Shown here: positions 46,378 to 60,960 of the stretch, piece after piece
Numbering within the stretch: the first letter of the stretch is position 1
How the letters are laid out: the number at the start of each line of letters is the position of its first letter
Source of the DNA: Lentisphaeria bacterium
Lineage (GTDB): Bacteria > Verrucomicrobiota > Lentisphaeria > Oligosphaerales > Oligosphaeraceae
DNA: 64,000 nt
Assembly (NCBI GenBank): GCA_050949415.1
Contig: JBMNFR010000015.1
Coordinates: forward strand, 549,093 to 613,092
Reading direction: 5' to 3'
The notes under the pieces: generated by a model
Told to the model about the DNA's origin: nothing
Databases searched by the model: none
What the model saw: the letters and a program-made list of their open reading frames with translations, nothing else
Translations under genes and position numbers: made by a program

Positions 46378-48018
46378 ATGGCTAACATCAAGCAGGTGAA
46401 CGTGATAGAACGAATACAACAGCTCTGCCGGCAGGGTGCCAGCCAACGCCGGATAGCCCGTGAACTGGGCGTCAGCCGCAACACCGTGGCCCGTTATGCG
46501 GGCAAAACACCCGGGGCCCCGGTCGGGGGTGGCTCAGTTTCAGACCATGCGACCCACGGGGCGCCGGCTGGCCCGGACGGGCAAAATGAGCCACAAGCGA
46601 CCCACGGGGTGGCTCAGTTTGAAAATCATCCTTTCGTGCCTGATGCGACCCACGGGTCTGAAACGCCGACCGGTGCCGTCCCGCCGGCGCCGGAAGCTGA
46701 CGCCCGGTCGCTTTGCGCCCCCCATGCCGACTTCATCCGGCAAGAGCTGGCCATGGGACTTTCCGGCCGTCGCATCTTCCAGGACTTACAGGATGATTTC
46801 GCCTTTTCCGGCAGCTACGCCAGTGTGAAAAGATACCTTCGCCACCTTGGCCGGACCGCTCCCCCTGTTCCCTTCCGCCGCCTGCGCAAGGAACCGGGCC
46901 TGGAGATGCAGGTCGATTACGGTACTGGAGCGCCTGTCTATGACGACCGCGGGCGCCTACGCAAGACCTGGCTTCTGTGCTGCACTCTCAGCTACAGCCG
47001 CCGAATCTATTGCGAGGTCCATTATCGCCAGGATACCCAGAGCTTCATCCGCGGCATTGAAAACGCCTTCATCTATTTTGGCGGGGTCCCCGCCACCCTT
47101 GTCATCGACAACCTCAAGGCCGGCGTCACCAAGGCCGACCTGTACGATCCCGTCCTGAACCCCATGCTGGCATCCTTCGCCCGTCACTACGACACGTGCG
47201 TGCTTCCCTGCCGCCCGGGGATGCCGCGGCACAAGGGGAGGGTCGAGAACACGGTCGGGTATGTCCAGGACAATGCTCTCAAGGGCCGCCGGTTCGATGC
47301 GATCAACGAACAGAACGGGTTCCTCTGGAAATGGCAGGGGAACGTGTCGGACCACCGCTTTCACGGCACCGAGAAACGCCACGTCATCGACATGTACGCC
47401 GAGGAGAAGCCATACCTGCAGCCCCTGCCGCCGATGATCTTCCCCTGCTTCAGCGAATCCCGGAGGAAGGTCCACAGCGATGGCCATGTCGAAGTCATGG
47501 GCGCCTATTATTCAGTTCCGCCCGAATACACGGGACGCGAGGTCTGGGTCAGATACGACGGCCGAGTCGTCACCATCCTGAACGACGGCCAGGAAGAGCT
47601 GTGCATCCACACCGTCACGCCCAAAGGGAAGACGTCCACGCTCCGCGGGCACGTTCCGGCCGAGAAGACCTGGGGGCCTGAGCAGGGCGGCAGCTGGCTG
47701 TCCAGCCGCATCGGAGCGGAAATCGGGGAAGGCGCCAAGGCATGGGCGGAGGAAATGGCACGGACGCGGAAGGCGGCGGCGCCCAAGGTGATGTTCGGGC
47801 TGCTGGCCCTGCTCAAGAAACATTCCCGAAGCAGCATTGAGTTCGTCTGCAACATGGCGCTGGAAACACGAGCCGACAGCCTGCAGGACATCAAGGCGCT
47901 CCTGGAGCATAACCGGGACGGCAGGCAGGGAGAGCTCCACTTCGACGCCCGCGGCGAGGACATCAGGGAACTCGACTACTATGAAACGCAGGCAAAGACC
48001 AGGGAGGCCTTCGCATGA
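46378..48018 (+). CDS. istA: IS21-family transposase IstA
   Basis: N-terminal HTH RRIARELGVSRNTVARY. DDE core QVDYGTG ... SYSRRIY ... FGGVP..LVIDNLKAGV. Contains an unusual in-frame roughly 60-aa insert (ATHG..AQF x3) encoded by copies of the IS terminal-repeat motif. Confidence 0.85.
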   Translation: MANIKQVNVIERIQQLCRQGASQRRIARELGVSRNTVARYAGKTPGAPVGGGSVSDHATHGAPAGPDGQNEPQATHGVAQFENHPFVPDATHGSETPTGAVPPAPEADARSLCAPHADFIRQELAMGLSGRRIFQDLQDDFAFSGSYASVKRYLRHLGRTAPPVPFRRLRKEPGLEMQVDYGTGAPVYDDRGRLRKTWLLCCTLSYSRRIYCEVHYRQDTQSFIRGIENAFIYFGGVPATLVIDNLKAGVTKADLYDPVLNPMLASFARHYDTCVLPCRPGMPRHKGRVENTVGYVQDNALKGRRFDAINEQNGFLWKWQGNVSDHRFHGTEKRHVIDMYAEEKPYLQPLPPMIFPCFSESRRKVHSDGHVEVMGAYYSVPPEYTGREVWVRYDGRVVTILNDGQEELCIHTVTPKGKTSTLRGHVPAEKTWGPEQGGSWLSSRIGAEIGEGAKAWAEEMARTRKAAAPKVMFGLLALLKKHSRSSIEFVCNMALETRADSLQDIKALLEHNRDGRQGELHFDARGEDIRELDYYETQAKTREAFA

Positions 48019-48767
48019 GCATCGATAACATCCGTACGCAGCTGAAGCAGCTCAGGCTGTCCGGAGCCTCAACGGCCCTGGATCTGCGCCTGCAGGAAGC
48101 AAGAGCCAACTGCCTGGACCATGCCCAGTTCCTTGAAATACTCATGCAGGACGAGCTGCTCAACCGGTCGAACAACAAGATGAAAGCCGCCCTCCGGCTG
48201 GCCGGCTTCAGGGGCTTGAAGCCGCTTTCCGACTTCGACTGGCAGTTCAACCCGAACCTGGACCGGAGGGCCTTCTACGAACTCGCCGGGGGCGATTTTG
48301 TGCGCAAGGGAACCAACGTCCTGTTCGTCGGGCCTTCCGGGACGGGCAAGACCTGCCTGGCGCAGGCTATCGGCTACGAGGGGCTGAAACTCGGCTTCTC
48401 GGTCATCTACCGGTCAATCTTCGACGTGGTCGGCAGTCTGCAGCGGTTCAACGCGCTCAGTGACCGGAATGCGGAGTTCGACCGGTACCTCAAGGCAGAC
48501 CTGCTGCTCATCGACGACATGGGGCTTAAGCAGCTGCCGGAAAAGTCAGGGGAGCTGCTCTTCGAGATCATCTTCCGCCGGCACGGGCTCAAATCCACGC
48601 TGATGACCAGCAACCGGCCGCTGGAAGAGTGGGGAAAGCTCATCCGCGACGTGCCGACGGCGGGGGCGATCCTGGACCGCTTCCTGGAGCAGTCGCTGGT
48701 CATCCGGTTCAAGGGACGAAGCTACCGGCTGGCAGGGACACCCGAGCCGGCCGCCACCGAGCACTAG
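48015..48767 (+). CDS. istB: IS21-family helper ATPase IstB
   Basis: Walker A GPSGTGKT, Walker B LLLIDDMG, and a 4-nt overlap with istA. Confidence 0.9.
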   Translation: MSIDNIRTQLKQLRLSGASTALDLRLQEARANCLDHAQFLEILMQDELLNRSNNKMKAALRLAGFRGLKPLSDFDWQFNPNLDRRAFYELAGGDFVRKGTNVLFVGPSGTGKTCLAQAIGYEGLKLGFSVIYRSIFDVVGSLQRFNALSDRNAEFDRYLKADLLLIDDMGLKQLPEKSGELLFEIIFRRHGLKSTLMTSNRPLEEWGKLIRDVPTAGAILDRFLEQSLVIRFKGRSYRLAGTPEPAATEH

Positions 48768-49441: not shown

Positions 49442-50110
49442 ATGAAAGTACTTTTGATCGAAGACAACAGCCAGTGCGCTGATTTCATTATCCAGGGATT
49501 GCAACAGTCGGGTTTTCAGGTGCTCCACAGTTCGGATGGTCTGGATGGCCTGTTCAAAGCCCGTACTGAGCCGTTTGATATTGCGGTTATCGACATCATG
49601 CTACCGAAACTCGACGGACTGGCGGTCATCGAGGAAATCCGGCGGGCCAAAATCAAGACTCCAATCATCGTACTCAGCGCCCGGGATTCTGTTGAAAGCA
49701 AAGTCAAGGGGCTGGAAACCGGCGCGGATGACTACTTGGCCAAGCCGTTTTCCTTCTCCGAACTGCAGGCGCGGATCTATGCCCTGCTGCGTCGGGCAGG
49801 CGGTGAGAGTGAGCTGTCGGTGCTGCGCCTGGAAGACCTCGAGCTTGACCTTTTCGGACACCGCGTCACACGGGGAGGGAAAAAACTGGACCTAGCTCCC
49901 CTGGAATTCAAATTGCTGGAATATCTGCTGCGGAACAAAGGAAGAATAGTCTCCAAAACCACCATTTTGGAACATGTCTGGGAATACGGTTTCGACCCCC
50001 AAACCAACGTGGTCGAGGCACAGGTATGCCGCCTCAGGGAAAAACTGGACAAGGATTTTGAACGAAAATTGCTCAAAACGGTACGGGGATTCGGATATGT
50101 CCTGGAATAA
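49442..50110 (+). CDS. OmpR/PhoB-family response regulator
   Basis: Receiver domain (DIAVIDIMLPKLDG) plus a winged-helix output domain (LEFKLLEYL...GFGYVL). Confidence 0.9.
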   Translation: MKVLLIEDNSQCADFIIQGLQQSGFQVLHSSDGLDGLFKARTEPFDIAVIDIMLPKLDGLAVIEEIRRAKIKTPIIVLSARDSVESKVKGLETGADDYLAKPFSFSELQARIYALLRRAGGESELSVLRLEDLELDLFGHRVTRGGKKLDLAPLEFKLLEYLLRNKGRIVSKTTILEHVWEYGFDPQTNVVEAQVCRLREKLDKDFERKLLKTVRGFGYVLE

Positions 50111-51785
50111 AATGGCTACCTTATTCAATACGGTTCGGGCAAAAATGTGCGTCATCAATGTTGCCCTTATCCTGGTGGCATTTCTCCTTAGCCTCACCGG
50201 AATCTATTTTTTTCAGCGAAATTATTTTCTGGATGAAATGAAAGAAAAAATCACGATTTTCAGCAATGAGTTCGAATACGAATATCTGACGGGTGACGAG
50301 GAGATACCAGGTGCAGTGGTCATTCAGACTCAGACGGTCAGCATCCCTGATTTTGCGGCAACCGCCATACAGCGGAACAGCCCGGATGCGACTGTTGTTT
50401 TCGCCTGCCACAGCTTAAGTCAAACAGGTGAGGATGCCATCACGGCCATTGCCAATATCGGTGGGATGCTTTTCGAGTTCATGATCACCCCCAGCCGCAT
50501 CGAAAAACGTGAGCTTACTGCGAGTTTGCCGGAGCGGATCGCCAGCATGCATGAAGAATTCACTGAGGAGTCCTATGGCGAAGACGACCAGCAGTTATTT
50601 TTTCTTTTGCTATCATCCGAAGGAAGGATTCTGGCTCATTCCAGACAGGATCCCGACGATCTGCGTTTTCTGACCAAACCGGTTCGTCCTCAGACTGACA
50701 AAACTTGGTTGATACGTCACCACCATGGGGAGCATTCGGTTATGGCTCTCTACAAGCGTTTCTATGACGGCAACCTTCTGGTGATCGCCGGCAGTCTGGA
50801 GAAAGCGGAACGCAACCTGGCGTACCTGGCGAGTATTTTAGGCATCATCATGGCTTTCATGATGGTGATCAGCCTTGCCGGCAGCTTGTTGCTGTCCGGC
50901 ATGTTTTTGAAAGGTCTTAACCGAGTCAAAAAAACAGCGGCGCAAATTGCGGACGGAGACTTTAGCCAAAGGGTAGAAATGGGTCGTGAGGGACGGGAGA
51001 TCAACGACCTGGTAGCCGTTTTCAATGACATGGTCGACCAAACCGAAAAACTGTTGCGGGAACTCAAAACCGTTTCCGACGATATTGCCCATGACCTTCG
51101 GACACCATTAACTGCCTTGCGAGGGAGAGCCGAACTTGCCTTGACCAGTGGCGATTGCTCAAATCTTCCCATCCAGGTGCTGGAGGGCTGTGATCATCTT
51201 CTATCCATCATTAACACCACATTAATCATCTCCCAAACCGAGGCAGGCCTTTTCCCTACCAGTCAAGAAGAGTTGGACCTGTTGGAAGTGGCACAGCAAA
51301 CGATCGACATTTTTCTGCCAACGGCAGAGGCACAGGGCATCACCCTTAAATTCTCTTCCGATCAAAAAAAGAGTTTTTTGAAAGCCAACCGAACGGCCAT
51401 GCAGCGGATGCTCGGCAATCTGGTTGACAACGCCATCAAGTTCACCCCGCCCGGAGGCCGGGTGGAAATCCGCATAACGGAAGAGACCGGAAGACTGTCT
51501 TTGATAGTGTCTGATACAGGAAGCGGAATTCAACCGCAGGACAAAGAAAAAATCTTTAAACGTTTTTACCGTGGCGACGGCAGCCGTTCCACACCCGGCA
51601 ACGGTCTTGGCCTGAGTCTGGTCAGGGCCATTGTCATCGCCTATGGAGGTACCATTGAGGTGGAGAGCACCCCGGGAAATGGAACCACTTTCCGAATTGA
51701 CTTTCCTATCGCATCGCCGACAACCGGACAACCACCAGCCCACCACGAAAGGCCGGCAACGCCTGGAACGCATCGCGTTTCCTAA
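50097..51785 (+). CDS. Sensor histidine kinase (two TM segments, HAMP, HisKA, HATPase_c)
   Basis: H-box HDLRTPLTAL, N-box LVDNAIKFT, G-boxes DTGSGI and GLGLSLV. The start could be 50097 (overlapping the response-regulator stop) or 50112. Confidence 0.85.
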   Translation: MSWNKMATLFNTVRAKMCVINVALILVAFLLSLTGIYFFQRNYFLDEMKEKITIFSNEFEYEYLTGDEEIPGAVVIQTQTVSIPDFAATAIQRNSPDATVVFACHSLSQTGEDAITAIANIGGMLFEFMITPSRIEKRELTASLPERIASMHEEFTEESYGEDDQQLFFLLLSSEGRILAHSRQDPDDLRFLTKPVRPQTDKTWLIRHHHGEHSVMALYKRFYDGNLLVIAGSLEKAERNLAYLASILGIIMAFMMVISLAGSLLLSGMFLKGLNRVKKTAAQIADGDFSQRVEMGREGREINDLVAVFNDMVDQTEKLLRELKTVSDDIAHDLRTPLTALRGRAELALTSGDCSNLPIQVLEGCDHLLSIINTTLIISQTEAGLFPTSQEELDLLEVAQQTIDIFLPTAEAQGITLKFSSDQKKSFLKANRTAMQRMLGNLVDNAIKFTPPGGRVEIRITEETGRLSLIVSDTGSGIQPQDKEKIFKRFYRGDGSRSTPGNGLGLSLVRAIVIAYGGTIEVESTPGNGTTFRIDFPIASPTTGQPPAHHERPATPGTHRVS

Positions 51786-51809: not shown

Positions 51810-52571
51810 TCATCGGTTGGTGTCCAGGCGGAAGAAGATGGCCAGCAGCCCCGCCACCAGCCATGCCAGCAACATCGTGACGATGGTGTGCGAGAGATAA
51901 TGGTTGCCGGCCAGCATTTGGTAAGTACCCATCAGTGAGCCGGCGGCTAAGGCAATCATCAGGCCACGCCGACGTCCTGACCGGCTCAAAGGGGCAAAAG
52001 CCAAGCCGAACAAAGCATAGCCCCCGGAGGCGTGTCCGGCTGGCCAGCCCTTATAGCGTTTTTCCCCGACATGACGTGGTATTGACTGCCAGACGGTCCG
52101 ATAGGGAATGCTGCCACCGCCGTACCGGTCAATCTTGCGTGGATAGGCCACGCCAGTATGGGCTTTGAGGATGGCTACCAGAGAAGGAATCAGGGCCAGG
52201 CAAAGCAATACGTAAACGAGGCGGAGCCGGTTCCAGGGGCAGGTTAGCCGGCCCCAGCGCTGGCTGATGGTGAGCAGAAGCAGCGAACCGGCAAAAAATC
52301 CCAGCAGAAACTTGGGGATCACGTAGAAAGTAAGCCCCAAAGGGCTGTGTTTATCGAATTTAACCAGCCACTGCTGTGAGTCCCAGTCATACAGACAGTC
52401 CTGCACCCATAGATCAAAGGGTATCCATTCCCCCGCCACCAAAACCAGCAGCAGAAGCCCGAGGGGCAGAACGACGCGGGAGTACAGAGCTCCGTTCCAA
52501 GGTGTCAGTCTATGCGATTTTTTGTTTTCGGTCAGGTTATCAGCCCTACATGGATGCTCCCTCGCTGGCAT
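51810..52571 (-). CDS. PAP2-superfamily lipid phosphatase (LpxE/PgpB-like)
   Basis: Polytopic membrane protein. Motifs KAHTGVAYPRK (KxxxxxxRP-like), GWPAGHASG (PSGH-like), and SHT.V (SRxxxxxHxxxD-like, degenerate). Confidence 0.55.
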   Translation of the reverse strand: MPAREHPCRADNLTENKKSHRLTPWNGALYSRVVLPLGLLLLVLVAGEWIPFDLWVQDCLYDWDSQQWLVKFDKHSPLGLTFYVIPKFLLGFFAGSLLLLTISQRWGRLTCPWNRLRLVYVLLCLALIPSLVAILKAHTGVAYPRKIDRYGGGSIPYRTVWQSIPRHVGEKRYKGWPAGHASGGYALFGLAFAPLSRSGRRRGLMIALAAGSLMGTYQMLAGNHYLSHTIVTMLLAWLVAGLLAIFFRLDTNR

Positions 52572-52591: not shown

Positions 52592-53221
<630 letters not shown>

Positions 53222-53361
53222 GATTTTTTCTTTTTTCGGTGGGTGAAAAGATCGTATCAATTTGGTCAGCACGGATTAAATGCGTTATGTATTCACATCG
53301 GGAACCTCCTTTCAGCAGTTGAATATTAAAAACACCAGCTCCGCAGCAAAATTCCTTTCTG

Positions 53362-54801
53362 TCAACGGGAAACAAGCAGTTGCCAGATAGCCAATACCCA
53401 GGCGATTCCATTTATGGCAAGGCACAAGCCGACCGCTGCGCTGCCCAGATCTTTGGCCTTTTTGGCCAGGGGATTATATTCAGGCGATACCAAGTCTACG
53501 ACCGCCTCCACGGCAGTGTTCAGAATTTCAATAACCAAAACACCTGCCCAGAGCAGGCAAAGAATCAGTGCCTGCCATACGGGAAACGGAAACAACCATG
53601 CTGCGGGAACAAGCAGACAGCCCGCCAGTAATTCATGACGAAACGCTGTCTCTCCAACCACAGCTTTCAGACCACTGCCGGTATAGCATGTGGCGTGCCA
53701 AAGATGGCTGATCCCCGTTTTTTTGCCGGAATGAAGCAATACAGGTTGTAATTCATCGGGATTAATGGGGCTTGGGCAAAAGCCTGTTCGAGCTATCCGG
53801 GCAGTTGCAATGTTTTTCTGGTTCAACAGTATACTCCCGATAACAATCAAGGCAAGACCTGCCCAAAAAATGCTCGATTTATTGCCCAAAACCGTGCTGG
53901 CAAAAAATTCCAACCGTTCCCGTCCGGTCTCGGCAGTGACATCCACTTGTTTGACTTGGATGGTGCCATCCGCTTTGAAGTCGAACATCGCATAGCCAAA
54001 CATGCGGTTGTCGGGGTCCCGGATAACTTGTCCACTGGAAGGCAGATGGATCAGCCGGATGCCGGCGAAGATGCCTTCCATATACTGATGGATATGCCCA
54101 GAGATAATCAGATCGATCTTATATCCGGAGATAATTTTCCGAAAGGCTTCTGCTTCCTCCGCCGGCAGGCAATGGGAAGCTTTCGGGCGCAGATCCACTG
54201 GCGGGATATGGCAGAGGATGACGCAACGCCGATAACGTTCCCTTTGGCTGGAAAGGGTTTGTTTGAGAAACATGCGCTGATCTTCCGGCAGTTTTCCTTC
54301 TGCTGTGTTCAAGGCGATAAACAGGGTATCTCCATAGCTCCAGTAATAAAAATCCTGACCGAAAAACCGGTGCCAGGTTTCCAGGGAACTCAGAAGTCCT
54401 AGATCATGGTTCCCTGGAATGGCCCAGAAGGGACACTTCATTTCCTCGCGTAATTCTGAAACCACATGACCGTATTCGGCTTCCCGGGCGAACTTCATCA
54501 TGTCACCGGTACAAATTGTAAAATCCGCTTTGCTGCCGATGGAGCGAATCACCGCTTCCATCGAGTCGACCTTGGCGCCAAAGTCGCCGAAAGCCGCCAT
54601 CCGGAAATTTGTTGCCGCTGGATGCAACTCGAGCCCGGCAGGCGGGAGAAATGGCGGCAGATTGGTCAAAAACACCGTCCGTGCGGTGTAACAAGCCAGG
54701 CACATGCCAATTCCGGTTATAAGCAGCATCACACCCGCGATGCGGCGCAACAGCCGGTGTCGCGCATAGCGACATTCTATCCTGGTTTCTGATTCTTTCA
54801 C
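53362..54801 (-). CDS. Fusion protein: calcineurin-like metallophosphoesterase + transmembrane linker + diacylglycerol kinase (DgkA, prokaryotic DAGK family)
   Basis: Phosphoesterase motifs GDFG, GDMM, GNHD, GHIH. The C-terminus IEILNTAVEAVVDLVSPEYNPLAKKAKDLGSAAV closely matches E. coli DgkA EILNSAIEAVVDRIGSEYHELSGRAKDMGSAAV. Confidence 0.7.
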   Translation of the reverse strand: MKESETRIECRYARHRLLRRIAGVMLLITGIGMCLACYTARTVFLTNLPPFLPPAGLELHPAATNFRMAAFGDFGAKVDSMEAVIRSIGSKADFTICTGDMMKFAREAEYGHVVSELREEMKCPFWAIPGNHDLGLLSSLETWHRFFGQDFYYWSYGDTLFIALNTAEGKLPEDQRMFLKQTLSSQRERYRRCVILCHIPPVDLRPKASHCLPAEEAEAFRKIISGYKIDLIISGHIHQYMEGIFAGIRLIHLPSSGQVIRDPDNRMFGYAMFDFKADGTIQVKQVDVTAETGRERLEFFASTVLGNKSSIFWAGLALIVIGSILLNQKNIATARIARTGFCPSPINPDELQPVLLHSGKKTGISHLWHATCYTGSGLKAVVGETAFRHELLAGCLLVPAAWLFPFPVWQALILCLLWAGVLVIEILNTAVEAVVDLVSPEYNPLAKKAKDLGSAAVGLCLAINGIAWVLAIWQLLVSR

Positions 54802-56939
54802 TGGTTTTCCTTTTGCTTTAGAGGTAAAACCATCACCTTTGTTAGATTTGGGAAACGCATAGCCGGGTGAAGCCGGTCAAGACCCAGCTGATGTCGCAGG
54901 GACGCGCTCTGGTAGAGAGCAATGCAATCGGCGGGATCGTTTTGGGTTTCGGCTTCCAGCAGTGAAAATGGTGCCGTCAACGCCCATTTTTCATAAGAGA
55001 GTTTTCGTACCGGCTCAAGTAAAGTCAGAGTACCCGTTTCCGCCACCAGAAGACCGAGAGTCTGGAATGTGCCCAGCGGCGCCCTGCCTTCTTCAGCCGG
55101 CAGATTAAGCACGTCGCGACCAAAGAACTGGCTTTCGTAGGACCATCCCAGCAGGCCGAAAATAGTGGGAGCCACATCAATCTGACTGCAGACGGTGTCG
55201 ACGCTCTGGACGGGGAGCCGCCCCGGGGCGTAAAAGAGCAGCGGTATGTGGTATTTGTCCAATGGAAGTTTTTGGCGTCCGGAGGTGCTGTGGCAGTGAT
55301 CCGCGACAATCACAAACAGAGTATTGGCAAACCAGTCCCTGCCCGCGGCGGCATCGATAAAAGCTCCCAGGGCATGATCGCTGTACCGAACTGCCGAGGA
55401 ACGGCTTTTTTGCGGAGCATCAATCGTCCCCTCCGGGAAAGTGTAGGGACGATGATTCGAGGTGGTCATGATCAACTGATGAAAAGGACGCCCCACCGCA
55501 TGGTCGGCATCTGCGGCCCGAAGCGCCCATTGGAACATGTCGCCGTCGCAGACACCCCAGGCAGTGGAGAAATTCTGTGGCGTGGCATCCGGCGAGGACC
55601 TGTCCAGAATGTTATAGCCATTGGCTGAGTAGAAGGCGTTCATGTTGTCGAAACGCCCGTAGCCGCCATAGACAAAGGTGGTGGTGTAGCCCCGTTCGTG
55701 AAACAGCCTGCCAAGGGAAAACAAGTCACCATTGTCCGGCCGGCGGAGCATGGACTGCCCCGGCGTGGGGGGTATGGAGAGGGTTACTGCTTCAAGGCCG
55801 CGTACCGTGCGAGTGCCGGTGGCAAAACACCGGGTCAACAGCAGCCCTTCGCCGGCGAGGCGGTCGAGATTGGGCGTGCGAGTCTTTCCACCCAGGCATC
55901 CGACGAAGCTGGCGCTGAGACTTTCTTCAACAATGACCACCACATTCCACCTTTTTTCCGGCCCTGGATTGATGATGTTGCGGCGGATGTCCAGCGGTTC
56001 GTCGCTGGTGAAGGCGGCATTGGGTTCGGCTAGATGGCGGCGAAGACGCGGGCCGATTTCCGCCAAAGGCACTTTGAGGTAGAACCGATTATAGTCCAAT
56101 TCGTTCTGATAGTAGGCGGCAAACAGGGAGTGAATGCCGTTGCCGGCCAGTTCCACGTTGCAGGGGTTGCCGTTTTGGGGGATGGCGGTCTGATTGTTGA
56201 AGGTGAACGCAAGAATGACGACGGCGACGATATGGACGGCGGCGGCTGACCAGCGTGTCTTCCACCCGGTTAAAGAATTCAGCCAGGGCGTCAGCAAGCC
56301 GTCACGATGCATCCTCCACGCCAGAATGGCGGCAGTGGCGAAAATAACGGCCAGTAACCAGAGAACGGGGTACGACTCCCAAATGTTGGTCAGGACTTCC
56401 GTGGTATAGATCAGATAATCAATGGCAATGAAATTGAAGCGGGTGGCAAATTCGCCCCAGAACACGCATTCGGCAAGCAGCAGAAAGAGTAGCGTGGAAA
56501 GGGCAAGGAGGATGATTCCCGACATCGCCCGGCGATGCCCGCGGTACGTAAACAGCCGTTGCGGAATCACCGTCAGCCATAAAGTCAGCGGCAATGTTGC
56601 ATAGACCGACACCACTAGGTCGTTGAGCAGTCCATAAAACAAAATCCCGGCCCCGCCGAGTCCACCGAATTCAGCCTCATTCCTTCCCATAACCATCAGG
56701 ATCAACCGGGTCATGGTGAAAAAACAGAGGCCGAGTGCGGCCAGAATGACGGTTCCGCCCAAGCGATGTCCGGTGAGAATACTCCAAAGTTGCCGGAAGC
56801 ATCCTTTGCAGCACAGTGCTTGTTTCCCGGGTGGTGAACATGTTCGCTCACTGCGTATCGGAGTGGAAATGAGATTCTGATCATTACCAGCACATAGGTA
56901 GCCGATGATAAGCAGTTTTATGATTTTCGAACAAGTCAT
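54798..56939 (-). CDS. Sulfatase-family (alkaline-phosphatase superfamily) membrane transferase, LTA-synthase / phosphoglycerol-transferase-like
   Basis: N-terminal polytopic domain followed by a sulfatase-fold domain (VVVIVEESLSASF ... TSNHRPY). Confidence 0.65.
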   Translation of the reverse strand: MTCSKIIKLLIIGYLCAGNDQNLISTPIRSERTCSPPGKQALCCKGCFRQLWSILTGHRLGGTVILAALGLCFFTMTRLILMVMGRNEAEFGGLGGAGILFYGLLNDLVVSVYATLPLTLWLTVIPQRLFTYRGHRRAMSGIILLALSTLLFLLLAECVFWGEFATRFNFIAIDYLIYTTEVLTNIWESYPVLWLLAVIFATAAILAWRMHRDGLLTPWLNSLTGWKTRWSAAAVHIVAVVILAFTFNNQTAIPQNGNPCNVELAGNGIHSLFAAYYQNELDYNRFYLKVPLAEIGPRLRRHLAEPNAAFTSDEPLDIRRNIINPGPEKRWNVVVIVEESLSASFVGCLGGKTRTPNLDRLAGEGLLLTRCFATGTRTVRGLEAVTLSIPPTPGQSMLRRPDNGDLFSLGRLFHERGYTTTFVYGGYGRFDNMNAFYSANGYNILDRSSPDATPQNFSTAWGVCDGDMFQWALRAADADHAVGRPFHQLIMTTSNHRPYTFPEGTIDAPQKSRSSAVRYSDHALGAFIDAAAGRDWFANTLFVIVADHCHSTSGRQKLPLDKYHIPLLFYAPGRLPVQSVDTVCSQIDVAPTIFGLLGWSYESQFFGRDVLNLPAEEGRAPLGTFQTLGLLVAETGTLTLLEPVRKLSYEKWALTAPFSLLEAETQNDPADCIALYQSASLRHQLGLDRLHPAMRFPNLTKVMVLPLKQKENQ

Positions 56940-56985: not shown

Positions 56986-58881
56986 TCAGTTTTTCATGAA
57001 TCGGAACATATCGTGTTGAACCTTTTGCAATTCGCTGGCGTTGACACGATAAAAATCATCCTGATTACTGCAGGGCTCATCCTGCAACGTGGTGATCTTA
57101 CGGCTGAAGTATCTCCCTTTGGTTCCCAGAGGCAGCACCATCTTGTGGGTTGTGCTGATAAACGCTGCCGTCTCCCAACCGCAAACGACCATGTGGGAAC
57201 GGTGATATTCCGGCGAGAACAGATTGCCCCCCACCGAGTAGTCCTCCGGTGGATTGACGACTCCAAGCAAAGGTGCCAGCGAAGGAACTATGTCGGTATG
57301 GTGACTCATGCCCTCGTATACCGATGGAGTAACTCCTGGCCCCCGAATGACCAGCGGAACCCGTATCTGCTCCTGCACAAATGTCGAATTGTGTCCAAGA
57401 AAACCCTTTTCATAAAATTCCTCTCCATGGTCGCCGGTGATCACAACAATGGTGTTTTCCAGCAGTTCAGGTGTGTTTTCCAGCGCTGTGAAAAGGCGCG
57501 CCAACTGGTTGTCAATATGGTGCGCCGCGTTGACATCCCGGTTGTACAGCCGTTTGGCGTCTTGAGCTGAAACGGTGGCATAATTAATGTTTTCCAAATA
57601 ATCCTGCGTCATTGCCTGCTCCGGCGGAAAGGTATAGGGCGCGTGCGTCGACTCAAAAAAACCAAACAGGAAAAAAGGCCTGTTTTTATCTCTGGAATCC
57701 AGAAAAGCAACAGCACGGTCAATCAGACGGATATCCCGCTCCCAGGCTTTTCCGTTGCTTTCTTCATGTAAGGCAGATTCTGGCAGGGCGGCAAAAATAG
57801 TCCGGTCAAATTCTGGATAGGTGAAACGGGCTGACGTCATGCATAAAAACTGGTAATTGTCTTCGACGAGCCAGTCAATCAGCAACGGACCACGCTGACT
57901 GTGAAGAAATTTTCCCCAGCAATTTCCGTACAGCCCATAGAACATACTGAACATGCCCGGACGCGTGCCGTGCCCCCCACTGTAGTGTTGTGCGAACCGA
58001 CATCCTTTTCGGGAAAACTCCCAGGTTGATGGCATAATTTCAGGCGAAAGCAGATCCGCCCGCAGAGATTCGCCTACCAACCAAATCACATTGGGACGGC
58101 TTCGCCTCGGTAAACGGTCTATCGGCAGAAGCGGATAACTAACCCGAATCAGGCTGCCGTCTTTCTGCGTAAAGCGGGGAAGGTCAGTCCGTTTCGGCTC
58201 TTTCATCCCAATCTTGCGCAGAAAACGGCGCATGCGCATGGTCGGCGCGTGGGGGAACGCATCGATGGTGCACAATACGTCTTGGTTGAGCAGGAAATCA
58301 GCCATACCAGTACACAGCAATGAAAGCAGCAGTGCGGCTCCTGTCCACAGAGGAAAGGACCATCGCATGGTCTTGACCGGTAAATGCGATGCCAAGCGGG
58401 TGCAGAATTCCGATTTCAAGCAAAAAAACATCAAGCAGTAATGAAACACCAGCAACAGTCCAAGTCCGACTCCGGCGGTAAGCAGAGTATTGGCTTCCAG
58501 CCCCATGGATTCAAAGCCGCCAGGCGTCGTCAGCAGATTGACTACCAGCCCATTGATATGATAACCGAATTTGACGAGCATGACAGCATCGGCAAGGAGA
58601 AAAAAATGTACCAGAAAACCCAGCAGCACGGCCAGACTTCTGCCGGCCCAGGTAATCCACGAAGTGTTTTTGCCCGGTTTGCCGCTGCTGCCGATGGTAG
58701 CCGCCAGAAAAGCCGGTATCAGGACAATGCCAGTGTAGGCCAGCCAGGTAGAGGTAAGATATAATAACCGGAAAAGTCCGGTTCCCCCGTCATTGTGCCA
58801 GGCAAACCAGCCGGTCAAGGGCAAGGTTGCCAAATACAACAAAAGACAATAGGTATAAAAGGCCGTACGTTGTTCCTTCAT
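56986..58881 (-). CDS. Sulfatase-family inner-membrane protein (YejM/PbgA- or phosphoethanolamine-transferase-like)
   Basis: N-terminal multi-TM domain, then a sulfatase fold (NVIWLVGESLRAD ... ITGDHGEEF). Confidence 0.6.
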   Translation of the reverse strand: MKEQRTAFYTYCLLLYLATLPLTGWFAWHNDGGTGLFRLLYLTSTWLAYTGIVLIPAFLAATIGSSGKPGKNTSWITWAGRSLAVLLGFLVHFFLLADAVMLVKFGYHINGLVVNLLTTPGGFESMGLEANTLLTAGVGLGLLLVFHYCLMFFCLKSEFCTRLASHLPVKTMRWSFPLWTGAALLLSLLCTGMADFLLNQDVLCTIDAFPHAPTMRMRRFLRKIGMKEPKRTDLPRFTQKDGSLIRVSYPLLPIDRLPRRSRPNVIWLVGESLRADLLSPEIMPSTWEFSRKGCRFAQHYSGGHGTRPGMFSMFYGLYGNCWGKFLHSQRGPLLIDWLVEDNYQFLCMTSARFTYPEFDRTIFAALPESALHEESNGKAWERDIRLIDRAVAFLDSRDKNRPFFLFGFFESTHAPYTFPPEQAMTQDYLENINYATVSAQDAKRLYNRDVNAAHHIDNQLARLFTALENTPELLENTIVVITGDHGEEFYEKGFLGHNSTFVQEQIRVPLVIRGPGVTPSVYEGMSHHTDIVPSLAPLLGVVNPPEDYSVGGNLFSPEYHRSHMVVCGWETAAFISTTHKMVLPLGTKGRYFSRKITTLQDEPCSNQDDFYRVNASELQKVQHDMFRFMKN

Positions 58882-59529: not shown

Positions 59530-60960
59530 TCAAATTCTGCCTCTTCTGGGGTTTGCGAAAAAACGGGGTTATTTTAGGGTGGCTTTGAGCATTTGCTTGG
59601 TTAACGTCATTGACGGCAAATCATAAATTTTCAGTTTCATGTACTTATAGTCACGATATCCATAGGCCTGGGATATCAGATGTCGGATTTTGTTGTTGAA
59701 GCCCTCGGTGGCGGCATTAGTTAGCCGGTCGAACTGCCAATAGGCACAGATACCGTCCAGATGCTGTGCCACCGTCCTTCCCATGGTCTTGAGCTCAGGG
59801 ATGTTCATTCGCTGGCAGATGCCGGCCCAATCGGTCAGCATCCGTCGAGCCTCGTCGGCATCGTCGGCCAGCTGGTAGATTTTGACCAGGCACTCCTTAA
59901 GCGTCCAGGCATCGTAGAGGTCTTTGGAGACCTGCTGCAGGGCTTCAATCGACAGTTTCTCGTCATCGGTGAGGTCGTCGCTGTTATGCAACAGTGCCCA
60001 CCGCTTGCCCTTCAGCTGCTTGGTGGCTTCCTGGTCCAACTCTGACTGGACTTTTCGGCGGACCTTGTCCAGCTTCTGGTTCATCAGCTGGATGACATGA
60101 AAGTGATCGTAAACTACCGTCGCGTTAGGAAGCTGCTCTCTCACCCATTTGGCATAGGCGTTGCTCATGTCCATGCACACGGCCTCAACGTCGGCTTTGA
60201 AGTGGTTAAGCCGGGCCTTGAAGGGGGCCAGCGCCTCGCTACCCTTGCCGTCGCCGACAAACAGCACGGCTCCATTGAGCATGTTACGGACCACCGTCAG
60301 GTACTTTTGCCGGCGCTTGCCTTCAACCCGTTCATGGCCAACGTGAATCTCATCTATCCCGATGATCCTGATCCCCTTCATGTGGATGTGACTGTATTCC
60401 TTTTCCAGCCAGCTCACTTCCACATTTTTGACGGCCTCCCAGTCCAAATCGAAATGGGCAGCGATGGCGCTGATGGTCATCGTGTCCCGCAATTCCAGGA
60501 TCGAACGGGCCATGGCGCGGGTCATGCGAGCCTTGGGGTGGGGGAGGAAATCCGGATTTTCGTAGGACATGGCCTGGCACTTCCGGCAATAAAGACGATG
60601 AACCAACATCTTTAAGTAAAGTCTTTTGCTGCCAATGTTTTGTCTTTGAATCACACGTTCGCGGACAGGATAAGCCTTGACCTCGGCTGATCCACACTCC
60701 GGGCAGCGGAATTCTTTGCATTCGATTTTCTCGTAGCAGGCGCCACCCTTGTATTCCATGGCGATGTGCTTGCAACTTCTGATCCCTTGAGTATGGTAAA
60801 GAACACTGGTCATCATCCGGAAAGCCTCCTTGGTTATGGGTTGGAAATGAACACATAACATAAGGCTGATGATGACCAGCTTCAACTGCTCGTTGCGCCG
60901 GTAAAGTCATGATTGGCTTTGCAAGGGAAATGAAACATTTCCCTTGCAAAGCCGGTCATG
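59530..60960 (-). mobile_element. ISL3-family insertion sequence (boundaries approximate)
   Basis: Single ISL3 transposase gene. Flanking ggctttgcaagggaaatg-type sequences appear at both ends, with a perfect 40-bp palindrome at 60916-60955 and a hairpin at 59490-59522. The exact inverted repeats are not resolved. Confidence 0.45.
59569..60816 (-). CDS. ISL3-family transposase
   Basis: Start MMTSVLYHTQGI with an AAGGAGG ribosome-binding site. N-terminal zinc finger CKEFRCPECG...CRKC and an ISL3 DDE domain. Confidence 0.85.
   Translation of the reverse strand: MMTSVLYHTQGIRSCKHIAMEYKGGACYEKIECKEFRCPECGSAEVKAYPVRERVIQRQNIGSKRLYLKMLVHRLYCRKCQAMSYENPDFLPHPKARMTRAMARSILELRDTMTISAIAAHFDLDWEAVKNVEVSWLEKEYSHIHMKGIRIIGIDEIHVGHERVEGKRRQKYLTVVRNMLNGAVLFVGDGKGSEALAPFKARLNHFKADVEAVCMDMSNAYAKWVREQLPNATVVYDHFHVIQLMNQKLDKVRRKVQSELDQEATKQLKGKRWALLHNSDDLTDDEKLSIEALQQVSKDLYDAWTLKECLVKIYQLADDADEARRMLTDWAGICQRMNIPELKTMGRTVAQHLDGICAYWQFDRLTNAATEGFNNKIRHLISQAYGYRDYKYMKLKIYDLPSMTLTKQMLKATLK

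What the first reader, a model, noticed from the sequence alone, without database searches (positions are those of the whole stretch)
53362..54801. Unusual single-polypeptide fusion of a calcineurin-like metallophosphoesterase with diacylglycerol kinase DgkA
The N-terminal about 300 aa carries the GDxG/GDxx/GNHD/GHIH phosphoesterase signature. After several transmembrane helices, the C-terminal about 120 aa is nearly a motif-for-motif match to prokaryotic DgkA. Coupling a phosphoester hydrolase to a lipid kinase in one membrane protein is not a commonly described architecture. It might form a phosphate-cycling step on a lipid carrier.
Basis: partly seen in the sequence, partly recalled or inferred. 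Interest (0 to 1): 0.55.

Follow-up and report, generated by a model that had tools for sequence, protein, structure and literature searches.

The report
Phosphoesterase–DgkA fusion in envelope-lipid operon
A real but rare and evolutionarily unstable gene fusion in Lentisphaeria joins a periplasm-facing metal-dependent phosphoesterase to the lipid-recycling kinase DgkA inside an operon that most likely remodels outer-membrane lipid; it mainly flags an unstudied phosphoesterase family.

Summary
Window 53362-54801 (- strand) is one uninterrupted 479-aa ORF with a Metallophos domain (aa 67-240) and a complete DgkA (aa 359-479).

- **Not an artefact.** The same fused ORF recurs in at least 9 other assembled contigs, in lineages 64-100% identical. 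Both halves are under purifying selection (dN/dS 0.12-0.23); the 28-codon linker gave about 1.2 in one pairwise comparison.
- **Rare and labile.** A HMMER scan of 1.84 billion representatives listed no other protein matching both halves. In sister genomes with the same operon the two genes are split by one in-frame TAG or by a frameshift, dgkA is deleted, or the operon has decayed.
- **Context.** YejM-like and LtaS/OpgB-like sulfatase-family proteins, the fusion, a poly-Asp PepSY-like protein, a PAP2 family lipid A phosphatase (best NCBIfam match, below cut-off), and an OmpR-type two-component system.
- **Topology (inferred).** The phosphoesterase faces the periplasm between two TM helices; the DgkA active site faces the cytoplasm.
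- **Best reading.** DgkA recycles diacylglycerol released by the neighbouring head-group transferases, as in eptA/mcr-dgkA cassettes. The phosphoesterase edits a membrane-lipid phosphate, probably on lipid A/LPS.

More distant homologues (36-47% identical) lack dgkA and sit beside ArnT-like GT-C transferases and the same regulator. Its substrate is unknown.

The parts
53362..54801 (-). Fused ORF, 479 aa: cytoplasmic tail, TM1, periplasmic metallophosphoesterase, TM2, linker, DgkA
   Evidence: ORF list; Pfam PF00149 + PF01219. An identical protein is found on 4 contigs from 3 JGI samples.
54667..54801 (-). aa 1-45: Arg/Lys-rich N-terminal tail (7 K/R in the first 22 aa) and TM1 (aa ~21-41)
   Evidence: Hydropathy and charge count; AF2 helix 2-45.
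53887..54666 (-). aa 46-305: calcineurin-like metallophosphoesterase domain, predicted periplasmic. Juxtamembrane FLPPAG motif. Metal-site residues D73, D100, N131, H198, H236, H238. Motif I lacks the usual His.
   Evidence: Pfam; invariant columns in 19- and 42-sequence alignments; block-mean pLDDT 83-98 over aa 51-290. Foldseek hits Rv0805, GpdQ and purple acid phosphatases; profile-vs-PDB top E 1e-11.
53812..53886 (-). aa 306-330: TM2 (IFWAGLALIVIGSILL), present in every family member, fused or not
   Evidence: Hydropathy; alignment; AF2 helix 309-330.
53728..53811 (-). aa 331-358: variable cytoplasmic linker, the site of fusion and fission. The in-frame TTG (53737-53739, L355) is the codon called as the dgkA start in the split relative L001.
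   Evidence: pLDDT <50 for 331-384; dN/dS 1.18 over 28 codons, one pairwise comparison; junction translations of 7 loci; DNA.
53365..53727 (-). aa 359-479: complete prokaryotic diacylglycerol kinase DgkA (surface helix plus 3 TM helices)
   Evidence: Pfam 94 bits. phmmer to E. coli DgkA structures 3ZE4/2KDC, E ~2e-16, residues 4-118. dN/dS 0.13-0.23.
54798..56939 (-). 713-aa membrane protein with a sulfatase/alkaline-phosphatase-superfamily domain of LtaS/OpgB (phosphoglycerol-transferase) type. Its stop overlaps the fusion ORF's start.
   Evidence: Pfam Sulfatase E 1.6e-39. NCBIfam best matches are phosphoglycerol transferase I and LtaS, below cut-offs. PDB hits VP1736 at E 5e-68, then LTA primase/synthase.
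56986..58881 (-). 631-aa DUF3413 + sulfatase-domain membrane protein (YejM/PbgA/LapC-like); first gene of the operon
   Evidence: Pfam; NCBIfam LapC_YejM_PbgA E 2.6e-41, below cut-off; PDB YejM E 1.5e-26.
52592..53272 (-). 226-aa PepSY-like protein with a C-terminal poly-Asp/Asn tail (~38 residues)
   Evidence: Weak Pfam PepSY_like match. The tail is conserved in the 7 relatives' loci examined.
51810..52571 (-). 253-aa PAP2 phosphatase; its best NCBIfam matches are the 'PAP2 family lipid A phosphatase' and 'PAP2 near MCR-1' models
   Evidence: Pfam PAP2. NCBIfam NF028538 E 1.6e-39 and NF028536 E 2.3e-27, both below cut-off.
49442..51785 (+). Convergent OmpR-type response regulator (49442-50110) and HAMP/HisKA sensor kinase (ends at 51785; start about 50097 by JGI's call). 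Closest to the Czc/Cop/Sil heavy-metal subfamily.
   Evidence: Pfam; NCBIfam. Conserved next to the operon in all close relatives, and next to phosphoesterase homologues in L012, L013, L015 and L016.

Best explanation
**The fusion.** The ORF is a genuine, lineage-restricted fusion of two adjacent operon genes. It was made, and repeatedly unmade, by gain or loss of a stop codon in a variable cytoplasmic linker.

The fusion is topologically seamless. The stand-alone phosphoesterase already ends with a TM helix whose C-terminus is cytoplasmic, which is where DgkA's N-terminus must lie.

**The module.** The protein belongs to an operon regulated by a two-component system that most likely remodels envelope lipid (lipid A/LPS).
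- The two upstream sulfatase-superfamily proteins are inferred to be head-group transferases. They would move a phospho-head group (phosphoglycerol or phosphoethanolamine) from a phospholipid to an envelope acceptor at the periplasmic face, leaving diacylglycerol.
- Diacylglycerol flips across the membrane and is re-phosphorylated to phosphatidic acid by the DgkA half at the cytoplasmic face.
- The phosphoesterase half is held tightly against the outer face of the inner membrane by two TM helices. It hydrolyses a phosphate mono- or diester on a membrane lipid. Most likely this is a lipid A/LPS phosphate or a phospho-substituent on it, alongside the PAP2 phosphatase.

**What the fusion adds.** It probably gives 1:1 stoichiometry and co-localisation rather than a direct hydrolase-to-kinase substrate hand-off.

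**Status of each step**
- Shown: the ORF, domains, motifs, recurrence, split/lost variants, selection, gene contexts.
- Inferred: topology, DAG recycling, lipid nature of the phosphoesterase substrate.
- Guess: lipid A/LPS as the substrate.
For: **Fusion is real and recurs**
- Identical or near-identical fused ORFs occur in L003, L004, L005, L008, L092 and L100.
- A 91%-identical type is fused in L006, L093 and L094. Fused forms also occur at 78% (P0002), 75% (P0003) and 64% (P0004/L002).
- Purifying selection acts on both halves: dN/dS 0.12-0.15 for the phosphoesterase and 0.13-0.23 for DgkA. The 28-codon linker gave 1.18 in the one pairwise comparison that could be computed.

**The same operon exists with other dgkA states**
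- L001: a single in-frame TAG, with dgkA called from a TTG four codons downstream.
- L011: dgkA in the +1 frame with its own ATG.
- L009, L089, L090: dgkA deleted.
- L091, L096 and L098: LtaS-like gene in fragments and only DgkA aa 4-53 left. L095, a 1.9-kb contig, shows the same sulfatase fragments but ends before the dgkA position.

**DgkA half looks competent**
- E. coli positions E28, E34, E69, N72, E76, D80, K94 and D95 (numbering recalled from the DgkA literature) are all conserved in the alignment.
- Its nearest named stand-alone relatives are Gram-negative DgkAs at 43-51% identity.

**Context and precedent**
- dgkA appears only where the sulfatase-family genes are present. None of the ~50 loci with more distant homologues has dgkA within 8 kb.
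- DgkA salvages DAG from MdoB and EptA reactions (PMC8027125).
- dgkA-eptA operons under a two-component system need dgkA for colistin resistance, and a pepSY-eptA-dgkA context also exists (PMC12064563).

**Phosphoesterase points to envelope-lipid modification**
- Homologues 36-47% identical sit directly beside PMT/PMT_2 (ArnT-like GT-C) genes and close homologues of the window's TCS (RR E 1e-92 to 1e-103) in L012, L013, L015, L016 and L086. A GT2 gene lies nearby in L013.
- Charge distribution is 7 K/R before TM1, 0 in the 19 residues after it, and 5 after TM2.
- Tethers to the membrane are short on both sides, and a juxtamembrane FLPPAG motif is conserved.
Against: - No biochemical data exist for any member of this phosphoesterase family, so its substrate is inferred only from neighbours.
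- The two sulfatase-family proteins are not EptA-type (no PF08019). One is YejM-like, and E. coli YejM is recalled to be a regulator rather than a transferase. DAG production by them is therefore assumed, not shown.
- The NJ tree backbone is poorly supported, so the direction of change (ancestral fusion with fissions, or repeated fusions) is uncertain.
- Motif I lacks the canonical His, and DgkA R9 and K12 are His here. Reduced or altered activities cannot be excluded.
- Gut alphaproteobacterial homologues sit beside a P-type ATPase and an ArsR regulator, not lipid A genes.
Confidence: 0.55

Rival explanations
1. Sequential two-step enzyme. The phosphoesterase is a PlcP-like phospholipase C that strips the phospho-head group from a phospholipid in the outer leaflet of the inner membrane. 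The diacylglycerol it makes is the direct substrate of the fused DgkA, giving head-group turnover from phospholipid to DAG to phosphatidic acid.
For: - PlcP is a Mn-dependent metallophosphoesterase that degrades PG and PE to DAG (PMC8231724; PMC8528852).
- Acid-sphingomyelinase-like phosphodiesterase 3b (PDB 5KAR/9K2E) is among the profile hits at E 3e-8.
- Fusions often join consecutive steps.
- Tight membrane tethering of the domain suits a lipid substrate.
Against: - The phosphoesterase is kept intact where dgkA is deleted or decayed.
- More distant homologues have no dgkA within 8 kb and sit beside GT-C transferases instead.
- No PlcP model or sequence was available, so homology to PlcP was not tested. 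The best NCBIfam hits are CpdA, SpdA and YaeI, far below cut-off.
Confidence: 0.17
2. Two-sided lipid-phosphate cycle. The periplasmic phosphoesterase dephosphorylates a carrier or lipid phosphate such as undecaprenyl phosphate or diphosphate, or phosphatidic acid. The neutral alcohol flips, and the DgkA half, acting as an undecaprenol or DAG kinase, re-phosphorylates it inside. The pair would work as an ATP-driven 'chemical flippase'.
For: - The predicted opposite-side topology is what such a cycle needs.
- Homologues next to GT-C enzymes would meet undecaprenyl phosphate released in the periplasmic leaflet.
- DgkA homologues of Gram-positive bacteria are undecaprenol kinases (recalled from the literature, not tested here).
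Against: - The nearest named DgkA relatives are from Gram-negative bacteria; none named among the 120 listed is from Firmicutes, and most carry no name.
- dgkA is absent from the GT-C loci, where such a cycle would be most needed.
- dgkA tracks the DAG-producing type of transferase, and it can be lost from the operon.
Confidence: 0.1
3. Artefact. A sequencing or assembly error or a frameshift joins two separate genes, or the ORF is a decaying read-through pseudogene.
For: Close relatives do carry separate genes, and in L001 only one in-frame stop codon separates them.
Against: - The fused frame is found in at least 9 other assembled contigs, from several JGI metagenomes, NCBI MAGs and a Logan run.
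- It holds across 64-100% identity, with different linker sequences and lengths.
- Both halves have dN/dS 0.12-0.23.
Confidence: 0.02

Closest known systems
eptA/mcr-3-dgkA and mcr-1-pap2 lipid A modification cassettes (TCS-dgkA-eptA of the Vibrio Harveyi clade; DgkA-MdoB/EptA salvage in E. coli)
   Same: - A DgkA gene is embedded in an operon with alkaline-phosphatase/sulfatase-superfamily membrane proteins.
- A PAP2 phosphatase, a PepSY-type protein and an adjacent OmpR-type two-component system are also present.
- DgkA's role there is recycling of the DAG by-product (PMC12064563; PMC8027125).
   Different: - The sulfatase-family proteins here are LtaS/OpgB-like and YejM-like, not EptA-type; there is no EptA_B_N domain.
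- DgkA is fused to a periplasmic metallophosphoesterase, a component I did not find described for those cassettes.
Class III phosphodiesterase-like metallophosphoesterases (Rv0805, GpdQ, CpdA) and purple acid phosphatases
   Same: - Same fold: Foldseek E 1e-12 to 1e-10, TM-score normalised to target 0.62-0.76 for Rv0805/GpdQ.
- Motifs II-V are shared.
- These are the best profile hits in the PDB, top E about 1e-11.
   Different: - Only about 16% identity.
- NCBIfam CpdA scores 51 bits against a cut-off of 225.
- Motif I lacks the His, and there is no purple-acid-phosphatase Tyr ligand.
- The domain is flanked by two TM helices and predicted periplasmic.
PGAP5 (MPPE1) / Cdc1 / Ted1, the GPI-anchor ethanolamine-phosphate phosphodiesterases
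   Same: - Mn-dependent phosphodiesterases (metallophosphoesterase family by recollection) that remove a phospho-head group from a glycolipid. That group was installed by the EtN-P transferases Mcd4/Gpi7/Gpi13 (PMC4214784), which I recall to be alkaline-phosphatase-superfamily enzymes.
- This is the same writer/eraser pairing proposed here.
- The layout of a lumenal domain between terminal TM segments is from memory.
   Different: These are eukaryotic ER/Golgi enzymes.
PlcP (Mn-dependent metallophosphoesterase phospholipase C of lipid remodelling)
   Same: A metallophosphoesterase acting on membrane phospholipids and yielding DAG. It sits in an operon with a lipid-modifying transferase.
   Different: PlcP works with a cytoplasmic UDP-sugar glycosyltransferase under the Pho regulon and is not linked to DgkA. 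Relatedness to this family was not tested.

Membership tests
Prokaryotic diacylglycerol kinase DgkA (PF01219) | Profile match above the curated threshold over the whole domain | tested here: met
   94.3 bits against a cut-off of 22.3; model positions 3-101 of 102.
Prokaryotic diacylglycerol kinase DgkA (PF01219) | Catalytic and nucleotide/metal-binding residues of E. coli DgkA (E28, E34, E69, N72, E76, D80, K94, D95; numbering recalled from the DgkA literature) | tested here: met
   All are conserved in the phmmer alignment to 3ZE4/2KDC. Surface-helix R9 and K12 are His in this clade.
Prokaryotic diacylglycerol kinase DgkA (PF01219) | N-terminal surface helix plus three TM helices, N-terminus cytoplasmic | tested here: inconclusive
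   Three helices (378-402, 408-438, 444-477) and matching hydrophobic segments are seen. The surface helix is modelled with pLDDT <50, and orientation rests on the positive-inside rule.
Prokaryotic diacylglycerol kinase DgkA (PF01219) | ATP-dependent phosphorylation of diacylglycerol (as opposed to undecaprenol) | not testable with these tools
   Only indirect evidence: the nearest named relatives are Gram-negative DgkAs.
Calcineurin-like metallophosphoesterase (PF00149) | Profile match above threshold and the alpha-beta-beta-alpha sandwich fold | tested here: met
   52 bits against a cut-off of 21.5. Block-mean pLDDT is 83-98 over aa 51-290. Foldseek probability is 1.00 to Rv0805, GpdQ and purple acid phosphatases.
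Calcineurin-like metallophosphoesterase (PF00149) | Five metal-binding motifs: DxH / GD / GNH(D/E) / H / GHxH | tested here: inconclusive
   D73, G99-D100, G130, H198, H236 and H238 are invariant and N131 nearly so. The motif I His is absent (GDFG, SDFA or SDSS) in the sequences inspected and is not among the conserved columns of the 42-sequence alignment.
Class III cyclic-nucleotide phosphodiesterase (CpdA/Rv0805/GpdQ) | Equivalog-level profile score | tested here: not met
   NF008359 CpdA scores 51.2 bits against a cut-off of 225.
Purple acid phosphatase | GDxG / GDxxY / GNH(D/E) / VxxH / GHxH, with the Tyr metal ligand | tested here: not met
   The position four residues after GD is K, E, Y or R and is not conserved. 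PDB purple acid phosphatase hits are only E 7e-11 with the profile.
PlcP phospholipase C | Sequence membership in the PlcP clade | not tested
eptA/mcr-type lipid A phosphoethanolamine-transferase cassette with dgkA | EptA-type transferase (EptA_B_N PF08019 + Sulfatase) | tested here: not met
   The two neighbours carry Sulfatase only, or DUF3413 + Sulfatase. Best NCBIfam matches are OpgB/LtaS and YejM.
eptA/mcr-type lipid A phosphoethanolamine-transferase cassette with dgkA | dgkA, PAP2 and an OmpR-type two-component system adjacent to the transferase | tested here: met
   Gene order in the window and in L001, L002, L006, L011, L089 and L090.

The most novel reading that the evidence does not exclude
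The fused protein is a two-sided lipid-phosphate recycler. A periplasmic metallophosphoesterase removes the phosphate from a lipid phosphate stranded in the outer leaflet (undecaprenyl phosphate, or phosphatidic acid). The neutral lipid flips, and the DgkA half re-phosphorylates it in the inner leaflet. This would be an ATP-driven 'chemical flippase', and it would also identify the long-sought phosphatase that makes undecaprenol.
Probability: 0.1. Interest if true: 0.8.

Novelty: new variant of a known kind. Interest (0 to 1): 0.42.

Why it matters
**DgkA.** Its embedding in envelope-lipid modification cassettes is known, so that half is ordinary.

**What is new**
1. A natural fusion ties DgkA to a periplasmic, doubly membrane-anchored metallophosphoesterase.
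2. That phosphoesterase belongs to an uncharacterised family of about 330 residues. It has tens of representative clusters at E <1e-30, in Lentisphaerota and in MAGs labelled Alphaproteobacteria (many from animal-gut samples).
3. In Lentisphaerota this family travels with lipid A-type modification genes: sulfatase-type proteins with PAP2, or ArnT-like GT-C enzymes. All sit beside closely related two-component systems.

**If the family acts on lipid A/LPS.** It would be, to my knowledge, a class of periplasmic lipid A-editing enzyme distinct from the PAP2 phosphatases. It would parallel the eukaryotic PGAP5/Cdc1 'erasers' of ethanolamine phosphate. It would also bear on how uncultured anaerobes tune their surface charge and resist cationic peptides or metals.

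**The clade as a case study.** It is a clean natural example of gene fusion and fission within an operon: in-frame stop, frameshift, deletion and decay are all sampled.

Tried and rejected
- **Sequencing or assembly artefact.** Rejected by recurrence in many assemblies and by purifying selection on both halves.
- **'Common architecture'.** Rejected. A phmmer scan of 1.84e9 representatives listed no other double-domain protein. All 120 listed DgkA relatives carry PF01219 alone. That word-indexed search did not return the known fused proteins either, so it is a weak negative.
- **Membership in CpdA/class III PDE or purple acid phosphatase.** Rejected on score and motifs.
- **Lipoprotein signal at the CLAC motif.** Considered by eye. 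It is not a canonical lipobox and is not conserved in distant homologues.
- **AFDB50 fold search.** The library was unavailable.
- **Papers on PlcP topology and motifs.** Wei et al. 2018 and Zavaleta-Pastor et al. 2010 are not held, so relatedness to PlcP stays untested.
- **Promoter/terminator scan of the operon.** It gave only consensus-level hits, 12 against 6.3 expected, and was not used.
- **Literature searches.** Searches for a metallophosphoesterase-DgkA fusion or a lipid A metallophosphoesterase found nothing relevant.
- **Neighbour clustering across 53 loci.** No single partner is conserved family-wide. GT-C genes occur in 9 loci (Lentisphaerota-labelled MAGs plus one each labelled Desulfohalobiaceae and Planctomycetota), and a P-type ATPase with an ArsR regulator in 6 loci from MAGs labelled Alphaproteobacteria or proteobacterium.
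Full report
**1. Observation**

The ORF list gives exactly 53362..54801 on the - strand: 479 aa with a GTG start. The GTG overlaps the TGA of the upstream 713-aa gene as GTGA. Homologues begin with the same MKESE/MTKSE N-terminus.

Pfam finds Metallophos at aa 67-240 (E 1.6e-13) and DAGK_prokar at aa 374-471 (E 4.6e-27), the latter covering model positions 3-101 of 102.

The C-terminal part aligns to E. coli DgkA residues 4-118 of 121. The blocks EILNxAxEAVVD and AKDxGSAAV and both glutamates of ExAFRxE are conserved. Only the surface-helix residues R9 and K12 differ; both are His here.

A single TM helix (aa ~309-330) and a linker separate the halves. A second TM helix (aa ~21-41) precedes the phosphoesterase domain.

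**2. Not an artefact**

The identical protein is encoded on four contigs from three JGI metagenomes. The identical type is also fused in L008, L092 and L100. A 91%-identical type is fused in L006, L093 and L094.

Fused homologues also exist at 78% (P0002), 75% (P0003) and 64% identity (P0004/L002). Their linkers differ in sequence and length.

| Comparison | Phosphoesterase dN/dS | DgkA dN/dS | Linker dN/dS |
|---|---|---|---|
| Window vs L006 | 0.145 | 0.226 | 1.18 (28 codons) |
| Window vs L002 | 0.122 | 0.125 | not computable (dS saturated) |

Both halves are therefore maintained by selection.

**3. Rare and labile**

A full HMMER scan of 1.84 billion 50%-identity representatives returned no other protein matching both halves. 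The representative of the window's own cluster is an unfused 376-aa protein, P0010.

All 120 listed relatives of the DgkA half are stand-alone PF01219 proteins of 101-188 aa. This is a weak negative, because that search did not return the known fused proteins either.

Within the clade that shares the operon, every state is sampled:

| State | Loci |
|---|---|
| Fused | Window, L002-L006, L008, L092-L094, L100 |
| Split by one in-frame TAG; dgkA called from a TTG four codons on | L001/L010 |
| Split, dgkA in +1 frame with its own ATG | L011/L097 |
| dgkA deleted; phosphoesterase followed directly by the PepSY-like gene | L009, L089, L090 |
| Decayed: LtaS-like gene in fragments, phosphoesterase intact, only DgkA aa 4-53 left | L091, L096, L098 (L095 partial) |

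The TTG used as the dgkA start in L001 is retained in frame in the window at 53737-53739.

In an NJ tree of the phosphoesterase domain the fused forms are scattered and the deepest branch (P0004) is fused. This suggests an ancestral fusion with repeated fission and loss, but backbone support is weak.

**4. Context**

The gene order on the - strand is:
- DUF3413 + Sulfatase (YejM-like, 56986-58881)
- Sulfatase (LtaS/OpgB-like, 54798-56939)
- the fusion (53362-54801)
- PepSY-like protein with a poly-Asp tail (52592-53272)
- PAP2 phosphatase whose best NCBIfam matches, below cut-off, are the 'PAP2 family lipid A phosphatase' and 'PAP2 near MCR-1' models (51810-52571)

A convergent OmpR-type response regulator and sensor kinase follow. 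This order is conserved in the close relatives.

It parallels known cassettes.
- E. coli DgkA salvages the DAG left by MdoB and EptA (PMC8027125).
- dgkA-eptA operons under RstAB/CarRS need dgkA for colistin resistance, and a pepSY-eptA-dgkA environment is described (PMC12064563).

**5. Topology (inferred)**

- There are seven K/R residues in the 22 residues before TM1, none in the 19 after it, and five after TM2.
- DgkA's N-terminus and ATP site are cytoplasmic (established knowledge of E. coli DgkA).
- The phosphoesterase domain therefore lies in the periplasm. About 20 residues connect it to TM1, including the nearly invariant FLPPAG motif. A short helix connects it to TM2.
- Every family member, fused or not, has both TM helices. 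The stand-alone enzyme thus ends in the cytoplasm, exactly where DgkA begins, and a lost stop codon gives a viable fusion.

**6. The phosphoesterase family**

- The AF2 model of the domain is confident: block-mean pLDDT is 83-98 over aa 51-290.
- Foldseek's best PDB matches are Rv0805, purple acid phosphatases/phytases and GpdQ, at about 16% identity.
- The family profile hits GpdQ, purple acid phosphatase type 5, Rv0805 and SMPDL3B at E 1e-11 to 3e-8.
- It is not a member of the CpdA equivalog (51 bits against 225).
- It lacks the motif I His and the purple-acid-phosphatase Tyr.

More distant homologues never have dgkA within 8 kb.
- In L012, L013, L015, L016 and L086 (36-47% identity) the gene lies directly beside PMT/PMT_2 GT-C (ArnT-like) transferases. 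Close homologues of the same TCS are adjacent (RR E 1e-92 to 1e-103). A GT2 gene lies nearby in L013.
- In six loci from gut MAGs labelled Alphaproteobacteria or proteobacterium it follows a P-type ATPase, with an ArsR-type regulator upstream in four of them.

**7. Interpretation**

- dgkA tracks the sulfatase-type proteins and is dispensable. The phosphoesterase tracks lipid A-type modification genes whether or not DAG is a by-product.
- The simplest model is a writer / editor / recycler module.
  - Transferases move a phospho-head group and leave DAG.
  - DgkA recycles the DAG inside.
  - The phosphoesterase, with the PAP2 enzyme, hydrolyses a lipid A/LPS phosphate or phospho-substituent outside.
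- The last step is analogous to PGAP5/Cdc1 removing ethanolamine phosphate from GPI (PMC4214784).
- The fusion probably adds co-localisation and fixed stoichiometry.

Two rivals remain open.
- The domain could be a PlcP-like phospholipase C feeding DAG to DgkA (PMC8231724; PMC8528852).
- It could form a lipid-phosphate cycle across the membrane with DgkA as an undecaprenol kinase.

Both are weakened by the independence of the two genes in relatives, but neither is excluded. The substrate of the phosphoesterase is the real unknown.

**8. Verdict**

- The architecture is genuinely uncommon and I found no description of it. It is a young, unstable fusion of operon neighbours inside a recognisable kind of envelope-lipid remodelling cassette.
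- Novelty: a new variant of a known kind.
- Interest is moderate and lies mainly in the uncharacterised periplasmic phosphoesterase family.

Noticed in passing
window 52592-53272 (-): The PepSY-like periplasmic protein ends in a run of about 38 Asp/Asn residues. A poly-Asp tail of variable length is conserved in the homologues of L001, L006, L009, L011, L089 and L090, and the gene is absent from L002. It could bind cations or cationic peptides.
   Followed up: partly
window 59569-60885 (-) and 46378-48767 (+): The operon and its two-component system are bracketed by an ISL3-family transposase and an IS21 istA/istB pair. Relatives L001, L002 and L089 have other flanks without IS elements. I did not examine whether the module is mobilised.
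   Followed up: partly
L091, L096 5298-7150, L098 (L095 partial): A decaying copy of the operon. The LtaS-like gene is broken into fragments and only DgkA aa 4-53 remains, while the phosphoesterase gene stays intact (358 aa). L095 is a 1.9-kb contig that shows the sulfatase fragments but ends before the dgkA position.
   Followed up: partly
L025, L026, L031, L033, L050, L053 (about 100-130 nt upstream of the phosphoesterase gene): In gut MAGs labelled Alphaproteobacteria or proteobacterium, the phosphoesterase homologue directly follows a P-type (E1-E2) ATPase. An ArsR-family regulator lies upstream in four of the six (L025, L033, L050, L053), with a related but longer ORF in L031. This may supply metal to a periplasmic metalloenzyme or be a metal-stress regulon.
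   Followed up: partly
window 54577-54588 (aa 72-75, GDFG): Motif I of the sequences inspected lacks the canonical His (GDFG, SDFA or SDSS), and that position is not conserved in the 42-sequence alignment. Metal site 1 would be one ligand short. What replaces it is unknown.
   Followed up: no
window 49442-51785 (+): The adjacent two-component system is closest to the CzcRS/CopRS/SilRS heavy-metal subfamily, below the curated cut-offs. Close homologues of it accompany phosphoesterase homologues in Victivallales-type loci with GT-C genes.
   Followed up: partly
L008, L009, L010 record titles: MAGs carrying this Lentisphaeria-type operon are labelled 'Desulfoplanes sp.' (L008) and 'Verrucomicrobia bacterium' (L009, L010). 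These labels probably reflect binning or taxonomy inconsistencies.
   Followed up: no
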